Assembly (NCBI GenBank): GCA_028692545.1
Contig: JAQUXC010000001.1
Location: 92,658 to 156,657, forward strand
DNA length: 64,000 nucleotides
DNA from: Patescibacteria group bacterium
Lineage (GTDB): Bacteria > Patescibacteriota > Patescibacteriia > UBA1558 > S5-K13
Direction: 5' to 3'
The notes beneath the pieces were generated by a model. The model had not been told where the DNA came from. It did no database searches and worked only from the letters and a program-made list of their open reading frames with translations. Position 1 is the stretch's first letter, and the number at the start of each line of letters is the position of its first letter. This document shows, in pieces, positions 10,134 to 19,710 of the stretch. Made by a program: the position numbers and the translations under genes.

Positions 10134-11675
10134 TTATTTTGTTATATTATATATGGAGAGGTGGCCGAGTGGCTGAAGGCACCACACTGCTAACGTGACG
10201 AGGTGTAAAAACCTCCGAGGGTTCGAATCCCTCCCTCTCCGCCAATCGGATTTTGGGGGCGAATTCAGAATTGCGGAATAGCCAATTTGGGCTTTAAACT
10301 GAATTTTCCTACCTTTTAAAATGAAGTTCGAGCCGATATCTTTCAGAAAAGATAAGATTTCAGAATAATTATTAGAATCTAGGAACTTTTTAGCTTGGCT
10401 ACTACGGATTATGACTTTCTTCATCCGTTCGAGCCGATTATTTTCTAATGAACTAAAATCAGATATTTGTTCAGATATATCAATCTTCTTACTTACAAGA
10501 AAATTTTTCTTTTTTAAATATTCTTGATCATCAATTAATTCATTAATCTTCATATCTAGTAATTTATCCAATTTGTTTTCTAATTGGATTTTTTTAATAT
10601 TTAAATCATTAATCAAAGCTTCATCTTCTGATTTTAGTTCATTTATTTGAGAATCTAATTCATTCAGCATATTATCTTTGTATTCTTTCGAAAGAGAAAC
10701 TTTTTGTAATATCTCTTTTAATTGTTCAACAAGTAATTCTTCTCGGATATATTTTTCATCACAACTAGCTTTCTTTTTAGTACAACGATAATAAATATAT
10801 CCTTTTTGCTTTTCAGCAGTAATAGAACAATCACAAGTTCCACATTTCATAAAACCAGTAAAAGAATAATTATGAATTTTCTTTCTTTTCTTTTTACCTC
10901 TGTTATTCATTACTGATTGAACTTGATCAAAAAGTTTCTGGGAAATAATCGGCTGATGAACGGCCGGATAGATTTCATTTTTAAATCTAATTACTCCATA
11001 GTAGATAGGATTATTTAACATTCGATGAATACAGGAAATAGACAAAACATTATTCCGATAGCTTCTTAGTCCTAGTTTTTGAAGTATTTTAGTAATTGAT
11101 TTTAAAGTATGCTCACCACTAGCATAAAGTTCAAAAGCTTTTTTAACCAAAGGAGCTTTTTCTTTATCAATATCAATTCCTTTAGTTTGATGATTATTCA
11201 AATATCCAATAGGAGCAAAACTAGGCCATAGTCCTTTCCTTAACTTTTGTCTATTTCCACGTTTAATATTCTCACTTAAATTATCTACATAATATTTACT
11301 TTGTCCAAAAGCAATATTTAGCATAAATTTACCTTGGGGAGTATTATCAAACCAAAAACTAGGAAATTTAAGGTCTTTTAACTTTCCTGTATCTAGTAAA
11401 TAGACTATTTTACCGCCATCAATACTATTTCTAGCTAATCTATCCGGATGCCAAGCTAAAATGCCGTCAGCAGTCCCTAATTCTATCATAGCTATCATTT
11501 CAGCGAACTTTGTTCGCCCTGGTTCTTTGGCAGTTTTAGCTTCCTGAAAGGAAGCTACGATTTCAAGTTTTTCTTTGGTGGCAAATTCTTTTAATTCAAT
11601 AATCTGAGATTCAATACTTAATGCTTGTCTTTCTTCTCCTTCAGTTGATTTTCTAGTGTAAATTATGTATTTCAT
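10134..11675 (-). CDS. large serine recombinase (resolvase domain, recombinase domain, zinc ribbon, coiled coil)
   Basis: The N-terminus has the YTRKSTEGEERQALSIESQ catalytic serine motif. A Cys cluster CGTCDCS...YYRC is present. The ORF reads through repeat A and the tRNA-Ser antisense without a stop, so the true 3' end is uncertain. Confidence 0.8.
   Translation of the reverse strand: MKYIIYTRKSTEGEERQALSIESQIIELKEFATKEKLEIVASFQEAKTAKEPGRTKFAEMIAMIELGTADGILAWHPDRLARNSIDGGKIVYLLDTGKLKDLKFPSFWFDNTPQGKFMLNIAFGQSKYYVDNLSENIKRGNRQKLRKGLWPSFAPIGYLNNHQTKGIDIDKEKAPLVKKAFELYASGEHTLKSITKILQKLGLRSYRNNVLSISCIHRMLNNPIYYGVIRFKNEIYPAVHQPIISQKLFDQVQSVMNNRGKKKRKKIHNYSFTGFMKCGTCDCSITAEKQKGYIYYRCTKKKASCDEKYIREELLVEQLKEILQKVSLSKEYKDNMLNELDSQINELKSEDEALINDLNIKKIQLENKLDKLLDMKINELIDDQEYLKKKNFLVSKKIDISEQISDFSSLENNRLERMKKVIIRSSQAKKFLDSNNYSEILSFLKDIGSNFILKGRKIQFKAQIGYSAILNSPPKSDWRRGRDSNPRRFLHLVTLAVWCLQPLGHLSIYNITK
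10155..10244 (+). tRNA. tRNA-Ser (anticodon GCU), long variable arm; integration target
   Basis: It has acceptor stem GGAGAGG/CCTCTCC, a 3-bp D stem, anticodon loop CTGCTAA, a long variable arm GAGGT-GTAAAA-ACCTC, T arm GAGGG-TTCGAAT-CCCTC, discriminator G and CCA. The anticodon stem has only 3 central Watson-Crick pairs. Confidence 0.75.
10239..10319. repeat. 81-bp inverted repeat copy A (overlaps last 6 nt of tRNA-Ser)
   Basis: It is the perfect reverse complement of 11722-11802. Confidence 0.9.
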
Positions 11676-11721
11676 AAACTTGTTTTAAGATCGATGAGAA
11701 AAATTCCGCTTTTGGCAGTTC

Positions 11722-11802
11722 TTAAAAGGTAGGAAAATTCAGTTTAAAGCCCAAATTGGCTATTCCGCAATTCTGAATTCGCCCCCAAAATCCGATTGGC
11801 GG
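11722..11802. repeat. 81-bp inverted repeat copy B
   Basis: It is the perfect reverse complement of 10239-10319. It is contiguous with the next repeat, overlapping it by 5 nt (GGCGG). Confidence 0.9.
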
Positions 11803-11899
11803 TGTGTTTTGGAAAATATCCGAACAGAAATGGCGGCGGCTGAGAATCTCCGCGGGGCAGCCGCCGCCAAATCCTCAAAAAACTAATCTGTCGCTTCCC
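11798..11899. repeat. 102-bp inverted repeat copy R1
   Basis: It is the perfect reverse complement of 19609-19710. Its centre region forms the imperfect palindrome CCAAAA...TGGCGG...TTTTGG together with repeat B. Confidence 0.9.
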
Positions 11900-12054
11900 A
11901 AAACTGCCAAAGAACCAGAATGGAAGATATCGGCTCGGACTTCATTTCGGTCAAAAGCGGAATTTTTCTCATCTTTAGATTTATCATACTACGTATTGTA
12001 TTATAATACAATATTGCTTAATAAAGCAAGGAAGAGTAAAATTAAAACAAGTTT

Positions 12055-12261
12055 ATGAACAAAATTTCTAAAAAATTAGGTCAAAACCTTAAAAAAATCC
12101 GTACTCAAAAAGGAATTTCTCAAGGAGACATTTCTCGTAAGTTAGATATGGACAGAGGTTATATTAGTCGTTTAGAAAATGGGATGAAGAATCCTACCCT
12201 TTCTACTATTCAAAAAATAGCTGATTTTTTAGATGTTAGTGTAAACGATTTAATGAAATAA
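12055..12261 (+). CDS. XRE-family helix-turn-helix transcriptional regulator
   Basis: The HTH_3-like segment ISQGDISRKLDMDRGYISRLENG is present. The protein is 68 aa. Confidence 0.7.
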   Translation: MNKISKKLGQNLKKIRTQKGISQGDISRKLDMDRGYISRLENGMKNPTLSTIQKIADFLDVSVNDLMK

Positions 12262-12270
12262 TATAAAAAT

Positions 12271-19475: not shown

Positions 19476-19490
19476 AAGAATTTGCCGCCA

Positions 19491-19512
19491 AGCGATTAGC
19501 GAAAGCTAATCG
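19491..19512 (+). other. perfect hairpin gcgattagc-GAAA-gctaatcgc
   Basis: It has a 9-bp stem with a GNRA loop and lies just 3' of the RloC-like gene. Confidence 0.6.
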
Positions 19513-19540
19513 CACATTATGAATTTCAAACCTTATTTAC

Positions 19541-19575
19541 CCCGCACCTTTTCTAAAAAAATGGTGCGGGGTGTA
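19541..19575 (+). terminator. GC-rich hairpin ccccgcacc/ggtgcgggg with A/T runs (bidirectional terminator-like)
   Basis: A 9-bp GC stem is flanked by a T run on one side and an A run on the other. Confidence 0.5.
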
Positions 19576-19608
19576 TTTGAAATCCGTAGTGAAGAAAAAC
19601 TTGAAATC

Positions 19609-19710
19609 GGGGAAGCGACAGATTAGTTTTTTGAGGATTTGGCGGCGGCTGCCCCGCGGAGATTCTCAGCCGCCGCCATTTCTGTTCGGATATTTTCCAA
19701 AACACACCGC
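19609..19710. repeat. 102-bp inverted repeat copy R1-prime (right end of integrated element)
   Basis: It is the perfect reverse complement of 11798-11899. Confidence 0.9.

What the first reader, a model, noticed from the sequence alone, without database searches (positions are those of the whole stretch)
10239..19710. Serine-recombinase element at tRNA-Ser whose internal 178-bp site is the reverse complement of its own joined ends (nested perfect inverted repeats)
Three repeat blocks organise the region. Block A (10239-10319) begins inside the CCGCCA 3' end of tRNA-Ser. Blocks B+R1 (11722-11899) are contiguous, sharing a GGCGG core at 11798-11802. Block R1' lies at 19609-19710. A is the perfect reverse complement of B, and R1' is the perfect reverse complement of R1. 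Therefore the internal 178-bp block equals the reverse complement of R1' joined to A. That is exactly the junction expected if 10239-19710 were circularised across a CCGCC core. The core region is an imperfect palindrome (CCAAAA...TGGCGG...TTTTGG), like a recombinase crossover site. The large serine recombinase gene (10134-11675, minus) occupies the short arm between A and B. The 7.7-kb cargo occupies the long arm between R1 and R1'. A diverged tRNA-Ser 3' fragment lies 30 bp beyond R1'. This does not match the usual attL/attR direct-repeat picture of an integrated island. It looks like an integrated circular element that keeps a full-length inverted copy of its attachment site. The recombinase could then invert either arm (a flip-flop or multi-isomer element), or the structure records an inversion-mediated integration. 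The 100% identity over 81 and 102 bp implies ongoing recombination or very recent origin.
Basis: seen in the sequence. Interest (0 to 1): 0.8.

Follow-up and report, generated by a model that had tools for sequence, protein, structure and literature searches.

The report
Serine-recombinase element with internal inverted attP
A small mobile element inserted at a serine tRNA gene carries inside itself a perfect back-to-front copy of its own insertion site, and the same design recurs in dozens of unrelated bacteria, so it is a real and apparently undescribed hallmark of a very large family of DNA-inserting enzymes.

Summary
Perfect inverted repeats of 81 and 103 nt share a 6-bp core (CCGCCA) at the 3' end of tRNA-Ser. 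The internal 178-bp block is the reverse complement of the joined ends.

It is not an artefact. The same nested design occurs in 29 complete and about 30 partial elements from other genomes, including a closed genome and long contigs, at tRNAs for at least 12 amino acids.

The ends are attL (tRNA arm | a) and attR (r' | host). The internal block is an intact attP in inverted orientation. Its GTTCG motif lies exactly 5 bp further out than in the tRNA arm in 32 of 34 elements. It sits just upstream of the outward-reading large serine recombinase gene, whose last codons are the attP P' arm.

Repeat copies co-vary: median 100% identity within elements, about 50% between them.

Elements with the recombinase facing the tRNA are intact in 54 of 56 loci. 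The flipped orientation exists (L107 is 99.6% identical to L006) but is rare and mostly degraded, giving recombinase-less derivatives. So "multi-isomer" is partly right; free flip-flop is not.

The function of the internal attP is unproven. I favour a recombinase-binding site in the gene's leader, held in the non-deleting orientation. Rivals are a programmed switch, a single-strand self-splint and an RDF substitute.

Eight literature searches found no description.

The parts
10090..10118 (+). Consensus promoter TTGACA-17-TATAAT upstream of tRNA-Ser. It points into the element, antisense to the recombinase gene.
   Evidence: 12 of 12 hexamer matches
10155..10244 (+). tRNA-Ser(gct). Its T-arm and acceptor 3' end form the B-type arm of attL.
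10239..10244 (+). Core CCGCCA of attL. It is shared by all three sites, and the crossover lies within it.
10239..10319 (+). Arm 'a': the P' arm of the attachment site. On the minus strand it also encodes the last ~25 native residues of the recombinase (LKGRKIQFKAQIGYSAILNSPPKSDWR).
10134..11675 (-). Large serine recombinase gene (513-aa ORF). Positions 10134-10238 are read-through into the antisense of the tRNA.
10319..10345 (.). Segment p (recombinase codons for DIGSNFI, contains GTTCGAGCC). It is an inverted repeat of 11921-11947.
   Evidence: I4; same pair at 100% in L001 and L005
11693..11714 (.). Segment q. It is an inverted repeat of 11952-11973. The pair brackets the internal attP.
   Evidence: I9; L001 I5
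11722..11899 (-). Internal intact attP in inverted orientation. It consists of a' (11722-11802), core TGGCGG (11797-11802) and r (11797-11899). r carries the P-type GTTCGGAT motif and the hairpin GGCGGCGGCTG...CAGCCGCCGCC. Read on the + strand it is the excised-form 3' end of the recombinase gene (...SDWRCVLENIRTEM...KN*).
11900..11973 (+). Scar-like copies of recombinase gene pieces at the start of the cargo arm: codons 46-52 (11900-11918), p' (11921-11947) and leader piece q' (11952-11973).
   Evidence: the same junction is seen in recombinase-less derivatives such as L091
11995..12012 (.). 18-nt perfect palindrome ATTGTATTATAATACAAT. It is a likely operator and holds divergent -10 boxes.
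   Evidence: conserved in L001
12055..12261 (+). XRE-type HTH gene, the first gene of the cargo arm.
12271..19475 (+). Cargo. It comprises zinc-ribbon membrane proteins, a DUF805 protein, a DsbA-like thioredoxin fusion, a DUF6882 protein and an 800-aa AAA_13 ATPase (PADLOC candidate defence family PDC-S06).
19470..19609 (+). Two pieces matching recombinase codons ~27-39 (19470-19491 and 19591-19609). A terminator-like hairpin lies between them, and they abut the right arm.
   Evidence: (I25); a contiguous 30-38-nt version is seen in L084, L025, L032, L035, L039
19610..19712 (+). Arm r' plus core CCGCCA (19707-19712). This is the P arm of attR, and host sequence follows.
19763..19792 (+). tRNA-like 3' fragment with B-type spacing. 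It lies outside the element and is probably a decayed neighbouring tRNA.
   Evidence: complete tRNA-Ser genes sit at the equivalent place in L009 and L003

Best explanation
Positions 10239-19712 are an integrated element of a very large family of tRNA-targeting large serine recombinase (LSR) elements. This family has apparently not been described. Its invariant layout is: attL, recombinase gene reading outward into the tRNA, intact attP in inverted orientation, cargo, attR.

Shown:
- The left end is a hybrid of the tRNA arm (B-type) and arm a. The right end is a hybrid of arm r' (P-type) and host DNA. The internal block is r'|a, that is attP, turned round.
- The recombinase's last native codons are arm a.
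- The two copies of each arm are kept identical inside each element while they diverge between elements.
- The recombinase module can be found in the opposite orientation, but those copies are rare and mostly damaged or deleted.

Inferred (about 0.4):
- The internal attP is a working recombinase-binding site. It lies between the promoter region shared with the cargo and the recombinase start codon.
- There it acts as the enzyme's own operator or roadblock. With the site at the gene's 3' end it may form a loop around the gene.
- It is kept in inverted orientation because any recombination with the ends then only inverts a module instead of deleting the recombinase gene.
- Recombination or gene conversion between the arms keeps them identical.
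- The occasional crossover flips the 1.4-kb recombinase module. This uncouples the gene from its control region and turns short inverted homologies (codons 27-39, codons 46-52, p) into direct repeats. Deletions across them then leave recombinase-less islands and ~0.4-kb remnants.
- After excision the circle would carry two inverted attP sites.
For: Repeats and anatomy.

Independent relatives with the same layout:
- L001, whose recombinase is 87% identical, from another sample.
- L002.
- 80 genome loci, of which 29 complete elements (with the window and L003) show both repeat pairs. They include the closed genome AP024682.1 and contigs of 0.77 and 1.8 Mb.

Site identity:
- The core shared by the three sites is only 3-13 bp.
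- The GTTCG motif in r' lies exactly 5 bp further from the core than the T-loop GTTCG in the tRNA arm in 32 of 34 elements. That is the attP versus attB half-site geometry of the A118 integrase model (my knowledge: Rutherford et al. 2013).
- The closest solved structure is 4KIS.

Gene overlap with the site: nearly all homologues end ...NWRRGRDSNPR, which is antisense tRNA. About 9 of about 64 classifiable homologues end in the attP-form tail.

Concerted evolution: a-repeats in 61 loci and r-repeats in 29 loci both have median 100% identity. Identity between elements has a median of about 50%. Close pairs are 82-95% alike between elements while each is 98-100% alike internally. The two interrupted recombinase ORFs have decayed or absent repeats.

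Orientation: the recombinase faces the tRNA in all 56 loci, and 54 have intact ORFs.

Flipped copies:
- L107 shares 99.6% identity over 1488 nt with L006 but lies directly downstream of another tRNA-Ser and has a 1-nt insertion.
- Derivatives that need the flipped state: L091-type, the L118-type mini remnant, and the P0075 recombinase-HTH fusion on 7 contigs. None retains inverted repeats.

Leader position: there are no promoter-like hexamers between the internal attP and the ATG (1 of 29 loci). 7 of 29 loci have one upstream of it pointing at the recombinase, for example L013 with 11 of 12 matches.
Against: - No experiment or read-level data shows that the recombinase binds or recombines the internal site.
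- An operator would need only about 50 bp. The repeats are 64-292 nt and nearly perfect, which asks for an additional homology-dependent process.
- The promoter evidence is weak: mean score 9.2 against 8.7 in shuffles. CPR promoters are poorly known.
- Two intact recombinases (L029, L083) show no internal copy within 1.2-3 kb, so the site is not strictly required.
- A circle with two identical attP sites should integrate in both orientations. The uniform orientation must then be explained by survivorship or by flanking sequences. That is an assumption.
Confidence: 0.45

Rival explanations
1. Programmed inversion switch. The 81-nt arms are the hinges of an ON/OFF switch for the recombinase gene. 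Facing the tRNA, the gene is opposed by the strong tRNA promoter and is quiet. When flipped, it lies 121 nt downstream of that promoter and regains its native 3' end and the hairpin in r. That gives a burst of recombinase and excision in a few cells.
For: - A perfect TTGACA-17-TATAAT lies before the tRNA, and no terminator is called between the tRNA and the arm.
- The flipped orientation occurs in nature for an almost identical element.
- The internal block supplies an in-frame native tail and stop codon.
- The stable orientation is uniform, as expected if the ON state is transient.
Against: - Flipped copies that can be judged are mostly frameshifted or deleted: L107, L100, the type II forms and the P0075 fusion. 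This looks like a dead end rather than a working state.
- The hypothesis does not explain why the cargo is also bracketed by the r repeats.
- Canonical serine integrases do not recombine attL with attP (my knowledge).
- In many relatives arm a contains a GC-rich palindrome that might attenuate read-through from the tRNA (sequence; not called a terminator).
Confidence: 0.2
2. Self-splint for single-stranded DNA. When one strand of the integrated element enters a cell, for example by natural transformation, arms a and r' at its two ends anneal side by side onto the internal a'-core-r. Host flanks are left as flaps, and the result is a nicked double-stranded attP in a dumbbell. Trimming and ligation give a circle without any excision reaction or directionality factor. 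After second-strand synthesis the integrase alone inserts it into a tRNA gene.
For: - The geometry is exactly that of a splint: the internal block is the reverse complement of the joined ends.
- The arms are 64-292 nt, far longer than protein half-sites. Their length varies but they stay perfect.
- Minimal elements carry no conserved second gene that could be a directionality factor.
- No replication or transfer genes are present.
- The family is essentially absent from plasmid and viral collections.
- The hosts are mostly Patescibacteria, which commonly encode DNA-uptake machinery (my knowledge).
Against: - The idea is entirely inferential. No single-stranded intermediate is known for any large serine recombinase element.
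- The recombinase must still be expressed from double-stranded DNA.
- The resulting circle has two attP sites, so the uniform orientation is unexplained.
- The family also occurs in phyla with no particular link to competence.
Confidence: 0.08
3. DNA-encoded directionality control. The dimer bound at the internal attP engages the coiled-coil arms of the subunits on the tRNA-type half-sites of attL and attR. This unlocks attL x attR excision without a protein directionality factor.
For: - No conserved candidate factor is seen. Minimal cargo arms hold one arbitrary gene.
- A complete attP with both P-type arms is what is conserved.
- The distance from attL is constant at 1.35-1.54 kb.
Against: - Factor-independent, bidirectional large serine recombinases already exist (TnpX, CcrAB; my knowledge), so no substitute is needed.
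- The hypothesis does not explain the long perfect arms.
- There is no structural or biochemical support.
Confidence: 0.07
4. Neutral relic. One ancient inverted duplication of the attP region is carried along and homogenised by gene conversion, with no function of its own.
For: - Pieces of the recombinase gene lie scattered next to the arms and look like rearrangement scars.
- Two intact recombinases lack the internal copy.
Against: - The layout is retained down to 45-50% recombinase identity, across phyla and across tRNAs for at least 12 amino acids.
- Loss of repeat identity goes with loss of the recombinase ORF.
- The repeats have a cost, since they cause inversions and deletions. Neutral persistence is therefore unlikely.
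Confidence: 0.08
5. Assembly artefact: a circular element misjoined through its own junction.
For: - The repeats are perfect.
- Contigs of relatives very often end at these repeats.
Against: - The same architecture is found in independent assemblies, assemblers and samples. It occurs in a closed genome and in 0.77-1.8 Mb contigs.
- The arms differ in sequence between elements but match within each one.
Confidence: 0.01

Closest known systems
Large serine integrase modules of temperate phages and integrative elements (A118/LI, phiC31, Bxb1, SPbeta)
   Same: - The enzyme has the same three domains: resolvase catalytic domain, recombinase domain and zinc ribbon. The best solved relative is 4KIS.
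- The core is tiny.
- attL and attR are hybrids.
- The attP-type arm carries its motif 5 bp further out than the attB-type arm.
   Different: - The target is the 3' end of a tRNA gene.
- The gene itself runs across the attachment site.
- The integrated element keeps a third, complete attP in inverted orientation.
- No conserved directionality-factor gene is seen.
- The family is not phage-borne.
Invertible segments that contain their own serine invertase gene (Hin, Gin, Cin, Pin)
   Same: - A recombinase gene is bracketed by inverted repeats that contain its own crossover site.
- Both orientations exist in nature.
   Different: - Those enzymes are small invertases that need an enhancer and Fis (my knowledge). 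Here the enzyme is a large integrase.
- Here the repeats are att arms of 64-292 nt.
- One orientation is overwhelmingly dominant.
- The segment is part of a mobile element.
Integrases whose gene spans attP (Myxococcus phage Mx8 intP, Sulfolobus SSV1 int; my knowledge)
   Same: Integration changes the 3' end of the integrase reading frame, as it does here.
   Different: - Those are tyrosine recombinases.
- They keep no internal spare copy of attP.
Yeast 2-micron plasmid and plastid genomes (two inverted repeats dividing a circle into two arms)
   Same: The predicted excised circle would have two inverted identical sites separating two unique arms.
   Different: - No replicon is present here.
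- Here the repeats are att sites of an integrase.
- No evidence of equimolar isomers has been found.
Engineered cassette exchange with two inverted attP sites (MiMIC / RMCE)
   Same: Two inverted attP sites flank a cassette.
   Different: That arrangement is man-made. The natural element has the arrangement only after excision. L074, where the recombinase sits between two inverted identical tRNA-Ser genes, looks like such an exchange product.
SCCmec/CcrAB and Tn4451 TnpX (factor-independent large serine recombinases; tandem accretion)
   Same: - Tandem arrays form at one target: L066, L003, L005, L025.
- No directionality factor is apparent.
   Different: - The targets differ.
- Those systems have no internal inverted site.
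Filamentous phage phiRSM (cited in PMC7192596)
   Same: A serine recombinase integrates at the 3' end of tRNA-Ser.
   Different: - That enzyme is a small resolvase-type recombinase.
- The phage has its own single-strand replication genes, and none are present here.

Membership tests
Large serine recombinase integrative element | Enzyme with an N-terminal resolvase catalytic domain, a recombinase domain and a zinc-ribbon domain | tested here: met
   Pfam PF00239, PF07508 and PF13408 all score above their cut-offs. The A118 integrase C-terminal domain 4KIS matches at E=5e-9.
Large serine recombinase integrative element | Ends are attB/attP hybrids that share only a very short core, with no long direct repeats | tested here: met
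   The three sites share 3-13 bp in 29 elements. In the window the shared core is CCGCCA.
Large serine recombinase integrative element | attP-type and attB-type half-sites carry the distal recognition motif at positions about 5 bp apart | tested here: met
   GTTCG lies 5 bp further out in r' than in the tRNA arm in 32 of 34 elements. In the other two the script picked a second motif.
Large serine recombinase integrative element | Excision needs a recombination directionality factor | tested here: inconclusive
   No gene is conserved beside the recombinase. Minimal cargo arms hold one unrelated gene. Such factors are too diverse to exclude by sequence.
Large serine recombinase integrative element | The enzyme catalyses attP x attB recombination | not testable with these tools
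   This needs biochemistry or genetics.
Invertible DNA switch (phase-variation type) | A segment is flanked by inverted repeats that contain the crossover site | tested here: met
Invertible DNA switch (phase-variation type) | Both orientations coexist in one population | not testable with these tools
   No reads are available. Across genomes, all 56 loci have the recombinase facing the tRNA. Flipped copies were found only by a targeted metagenome scan.
Invertible DNA switch (phase-variation type) | Small serine invertase (about 190 aa with a C-terminal HTH) or tyrosine invertase | tested here: not met
   The enzyme is a 513-aa large serine recombinase.
Tyrosine-integrase tRNA island | Tyrosine integrase, and direct repeats of the tRNA 3' part (tens of bp) at both ends | tested here: not met
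   No tyrosine recombinase is among the ORFs. The direct repeat is only 6 bp. The tRNA-like piece at 19763-19792 lies outside the element.
Folded single-strand attachment site (CTXphi / integron attC type) | The element replicates or transfers as single-stranded DNA (rolling-circle Rep, Zot-type genes, or an integron integrase) | tested here: not met
   None of these domains occurs in the cargo. The pairing geometry alone fits.
Assembly artefact | The structure is unique to one assembly and absent from independent data | tested here: not met
   The structure is present in at least 60 independent loci.

The most novel reading that the evidence does not exclude
The nested inverted repeats are a self-splint. 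A single strand of the integrated element, as taken up in natural transformation, folds so that the internal site holds its two ends side by side as a nicked double-stranded attP. Host nucleases and ligase can then circularise the element with no excision reaction and no directionality factor. This would be a serine-integrase element adapted to spread as single-stranded DNA.
Probability: 0.08. Interest if true: 0.95.

Novelty: new variant of a known kind. Interest (0 to 1): 0.72.

Why it matters
1. It defines a very large family of serine integrases. 6942 proteins scored E<=1e-20 among only the 8000 best candidates. They occur mostly in Patescibacteria but also in many other phyla, and they target the 3' ends of tRNA genes.

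2. A complete attP inside the integrated element is not part of the textbook picture of serine integrases. Whatever it does (self-regulation, inversion, single-strand circularisation or directionality control), it is a new design principle that can be tested directly with site plasmids.

3. It has a practical use. Every integrated copy documents both of its own sites. attP can be read from the internal block, and attB is the tRNA arm plus the right flank. Dozens of new attP/attB pairs can therefore be read from single genomes for genome-engineering screens.

4. The repeats systematically break metagenome assemblies: 50 of 80 contigs end at them. They also create over-long recombinase ORFs that overlap tRNA genes. 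Both points matter for annotating genomes of candidate-phyla bacteria.

5. The flip-then-delete route explains how recombinase-less cargo islands and ~0.4-kb remnants next to tRNA genes arise.

Tried and rejected
- Exact-protein look-up of the window's recombinase found nothing on record.
- Misassembly was rejected by the independent loci.
- A tyrosine-type tRNA island with direct repeats was rejected. The direct repeat is only 6 bp, and the tRNA-like fragment lies outside the element.
- Free flip-flop of both arms was rejected as the steady state because orientation is uniform.
- A phage or plasmid origin is unlikely. There are only 5 hits in IMG/VR, 4 of them at 44-74% identity and mostly partial. 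PLSDB gives only matches below 30% identity.
- A promoter inside the internal site was not found.
- A promoter active only in folded single-stranded DNA was considered. It adds nothing, because the same duplex exists in double-stranded DNA.
- I tried to derive the layout from a head-to-head dimer, from insertion at a pseudo-site inside the recombinase gene, and from hairpin-capped integration followed by replication. The hairpin route formally reproduces the layout. It needs the same starting content as a circle with two attP sites, however, so it does not discriminate.
- Eight full-text literature searches found no description of a natural internal inverted attP or of this family.
- L074 (recombinase between two identical inverted tRNA-Ser genes) and the 865-894-aa homologues were left unexplained.

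
Full report
OBSERVATION. The repeats are exactly as described, apart from a 1-2 nt offset at the right end.
- 10239-10319 pairs with 11722-11802 (81 nt, 100% complementary). 11797-11899 pairs with 19610-19712 (103 nt, 100%).
- The two internal arms overlap on TGGCGG at 11797-11802. So 11722-11899 is the reverse complement of the right end joined to the left end across CCGCCA.
- Each arm occurs exactly twice in the window, and none is expected by chance.
- tRNA-Ser(gct) is at 10155-10244.
- The 513-aa ORF at 10134-11675 on the minus strand is a large serine recombinase. 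Its closest solved relative is the A118 integrase DNA-binding region 4KIS.

ANATOMY. Reading the window left to right:
- A perfect TTGACA-17-TATAAT promoter lies at 10090-10118.
- The tRNA follows. The core CCGCCA is its last six bases.
- Arm a comes next. It is also the coding sequence, on the other strand, of the recombinase's last native residues.
- The rest of the recombinase gene follows, pointing towards the tRNA.
- A 46-nt leader follows.
- The internal block a'-core-r follows.
- Three short pieces that copy parts of the recombinase gene and its leader follow at 11900-11973.
- An 18-nt palindrome containing TATAAT follows at 11995-12012.
- An XRE-type HTH gene and 7.2 kb of cargo follow. 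The cargo's AAA_13 ATPase matches the PADLOC candidate defence family PDC-S06.
- Two pieces copying recombinase codons ~27-39 follow.
- Arm r' and the core follow, and then host DNA.

The recombinase ORF continues 35 codons past the core into the antisense of the tRNA (...SDW|RRGRDSNPRR...). Read on the + strand, the internal block gives the alternative ending ...SDWRCVLENIRTEM...KN*.

IT IS A FAMILY TRAIT, NOT AN ARTEFACT.
- The recombinase has thousands of homologues. Almost all end in ...NWRRGRDSNPR, which is antisense tRNA. A minority end in the alternative tail.
- The closest relative (87% identity, different sample and assembler) has the same internal block and the same small repeats. 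Its arm sequences differ from the window's but match each other.
- A 64% relative again has the repeat flanking the gene.
- A scan of one genome per species returned 80 loci. Self-comparison found the a-repeat in 61 loci and both repeat pairs in 29 (counts include the window and L001-L005). Among them are a closed genome (L066, AP024682.1) and contigs of 0.77 and 1.8 Mb.
- Targets include tRNA-Ser (four anticodons), Gln, Trp, Arg, Pro, Tyr, Glu, Leu, Val, Ala and Gly.
- The cargo arm ranges from 0.69 to 8 kb. The recombinase arm is always 1.35-1.54 kb.
- Half of the contigs end at one of the repeats.

WHAT THE THREE SITES ARE.
- In every complete element the left site is tRNA|a, the internal site is r'|a turned round, and the right site is r'|host. 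Only 3-13 bp are common to all three.
- The r' arm carries GTTCGAAT or GTTCGGAT, mimicking the tRNA T-loop GGTTCGAATCC. In 32 of 34 elements it lies exactly 5 bp further from the core.
- In the structural model of serine integrases (my knowledge: Rutherford et al. 2013, the 4KIS work) that 5-bp shift is what distinguishes attP from attB half-sites.
- So the ends are ordinary attL and attR. The internal block is a complete attP, and the missing combination tRNA|host is attB.

THE COPIES EVOLVE TOGETHER.
- Within elements, median identity is 100% for both repeat pairs. It is at least 98% in 41 of 61 a-repeats and in 25 of 29 r-repeats.
- Between elements, median arm identity is about 50%. Close pairs differ by 5-18% while each stays perfect internally.
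- Repeat length varies from 64 to 292 nt in the complete elements, well beyond a protein half-site.
- The two interrupted recombinase ORFs have decayed or absent repeats.
- Two intact recombinases (L029, L083) have no internal copy within reach.

ORIENTATION AND ISOMERS.
- In all 56 genome loci where a tRNA is visible and the gene start is present, the recombinase faces the tRNA. 54 of these ORFs are intact.
- Where a homologue of the window's HTH lies just upstream of the recombinase (12 loci, the window included), it is always next to the internal site and divergent from the recombinase.
- I used the single metagenome scan to look for the opposite arrangement: tRNA T-loop, then 135-165 nt, then the recombinase start on the same strand. 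A calibration on simulated flips suggested this catches about a quarter of cases.
- The scan gave 45 loci, and 27 carry a family recombinase start right after a tRNA.
- L107 is 99.6% identical over 1488 nt to L006. In L107 the stretch 'core-a-leader-gene' follows tRNA-Ser(tga). In L006 it follows r', and the gene runs into tRNA-Ser(gct). The L107 contig stops just before a', and the gene carries a 1-nt insertion.
- L119 (at least 444 aa) and L104 (at least 260 aa) are open as far as their contigs go.
- Most of the others are deletion derivatives that can only be made from the flipped state, in which short inverted homologies become direct repeats. There are three kinds:
  - tRNA|a-leader-codons 1-52-p'-q'-HTH-cargo (L091). 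The window's own cargo arm begins with the same junction.
  - About 0.4-kb remnants: tRNA|a-leader-codons 1-40-r'|host (L118, L132).
  - A recombinase(1-453)-HTH fusion found on seven contigs (P0075, L136-L139).
- None of these retains inverted repeats or an internal attP.
- So the recombinase module does invert in nature, but the flipped state is rare and usually ends in decay.

ARRAYS.
- L066 is a tandem pair at tRNA-Ser(gga). The element next to the tRNA is decayed: its recombinase is in pieces, and its r repeat is 79% and its a repeat 97% identical. The distal element is intact.
- L003, L005, L025 and L019 show junctions of one element's r' with another element's a.
- This explains most recombinases with the attP-form tail.

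WHAT IS ABSENT.
- No replication, transfer or phage genes are present.
- There is almost no presence in viral contigs or plasmids.
- No second gene is conserved. Minimal cargo arms hold one unrelated gene.

HOW IT MOST LIKELY WORKS. These points are shown: the site identities, the overlap of the gene with the site, concerted evolution, the existence and fate of the flipped isomer, and tandem accretion.

The following is my preferred inference (about 0.4).
- The internal attP is a working binding site for the recombinase in the leader of its own gene.
- No promoter-like hexamers lie between it and the ATG (1 of 29 loci). 7 of 29 elements have one just upstream pointing at the gene, for example L013 with 11 of 12 matches.
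- The r' arm brings a hairpin with it.
- A second site upstream of the gene, paired with the one at its 3' end, allows self-limitation.
- Placing it in inverted orientation means that any recombination with the ends inverts rather than deletes the gene.
- Recombination between the arms keeps them identical. Rare crossovers produce the flipped, uncoupled and soon-deleted forms.
- After excision the circle would have two inverted attP sites. The uniform orientation of intact elements is then best explained by survivorship: only this arrangement keeps the gene under the control region.

Rivals:
- A programmed ON/OFF switch using the tRNA promoter (0.2). It is attractive because, but the flipped copies look like dead ends.
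- A self-splint for single-stranded DNA (0.08). It fits the geometry, the long perfect arms, the lack of a directionality factor and the host range, but has no direct support.
- A DNA-encoded substitute for a directionality factor (0.07).
- A neutral relic (0.08).
- An assembly artefact (0.01).

COMPARISON AND NOVELTY.
- The enzyme and the end sites pass the tests for a large serine recombinase element.
- The third, inverted attP has no counterpart that I know of or could find in eight full-text searches. Inverted attP pairs appear there only as engineered cassette-exchange landing sites.
- The element resembles invertible segments that carry their own invertase. It fails that family's enzyme criterion, and the coexistence of both orientations in one population could not be tested.
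- I rate it a new variant of a known kind, with high interest because of its breadth and because the function is open and directly testable.

Noticed in passing
window 11995-12012: A perfect 18-nt palindrome ATTGTATTATAATACAAT with TATAAT on both strands lies 43 nt upstream of the HTH gene. The same palindrome is in L001. It is a likely operator for the XRE-type protein and the core of divergent promoters.
   Followed up: partly
window 12729-15712: Four consecutive cargo genes encode paralogous membrane proteins with zinc-ribbon ends. About 100-nt direct repeats lie at 13710-13809, 13801-13900 and 14439-14538, and 50-nt repeats at 12974-13023 and 13777-13826.
   Followed up: no
window 19763-19792: A tRNA-like 3' piece lies 51 nt beyond the right end. 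From GTTCGAAT to CCA is 24 nt, the tRNA-type spacing. L009 and L003 have a complete second tRNA-Ser at the equivalent place, so it is probably a decayed neighbouring tRNA.
   Followed up: partly
window 10090-10118: A perfect consensus sigma-70 promoter lies 37 nt upstream of tRNA-Ser. It points antisense into the recombinase gene, and no terminator is called in between.
   Followed up: partly
L074 9640-11562: An intact recombinase sits between two identical tRNA-Ser(gga) genes in inverted orientation. The two a arms differ near the core (one L068-type, one L067-type). This looks like a cassette-exchange product between two inverted attB sites, a palindromic duplication or a scaffold chimera.
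   Followed up: partly
L066 4465-15175 (closed genome AP024682.1): This is a tandem array of two elements at tRNA-Ser(gga). The decayed one lies next to the tRNA and the intact one is distal. That implies a new element can integrate at a resident element's right end.
   Followed up: partly
L136-L139 (P0075): A recombinase-HTH fusion protein of 559 aa, identical on 7 contigs from several samples, lies directly downstream of tRNA-Ser(gct) with tRNA-Arg(gcg) upstream. That is the same tRNA neighbourhood as in the window. A second tRNA-Ser(gct) 7.3 kb away carries another element's a arm.
   Followed up: partly
P0002, P0064, P0073, P0076, P0077, P0085: These homologues are 865-894 aa long, nearly twice the normal length. 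They may be read-through or fused copies in arrays.
   Followed up: no
L006-L085 (80 genome contigs): 31 contigs end within 500 nt upstream of the recombinase start and 19 end within 500 nt after the gene. These repeats are a systematic cause of contig breaks in genomes assembled from metagenomes.
   Followed up: yes
L009 11350-11437: ARAGORN calls the target tRNA tRNA-Ser with anticodon ACT, which is unusual.
   Followed up: no
window 11555-11545 region and arm ends 11890-11899 / 19610-19619: The outer ends of the r arms (GTCGCTTCCC / GGGAAGCGAC) resemble the two halves of a small palindrome inside the recombinase gene at codons 40-46 (GCTTCC TTTCAG GGAAGC). The recombinase-gene pieces that flank the arms stop exactly there. 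This hints at a palindrome-mediated rearrangement in the origin of the layout.
   Followed up: no
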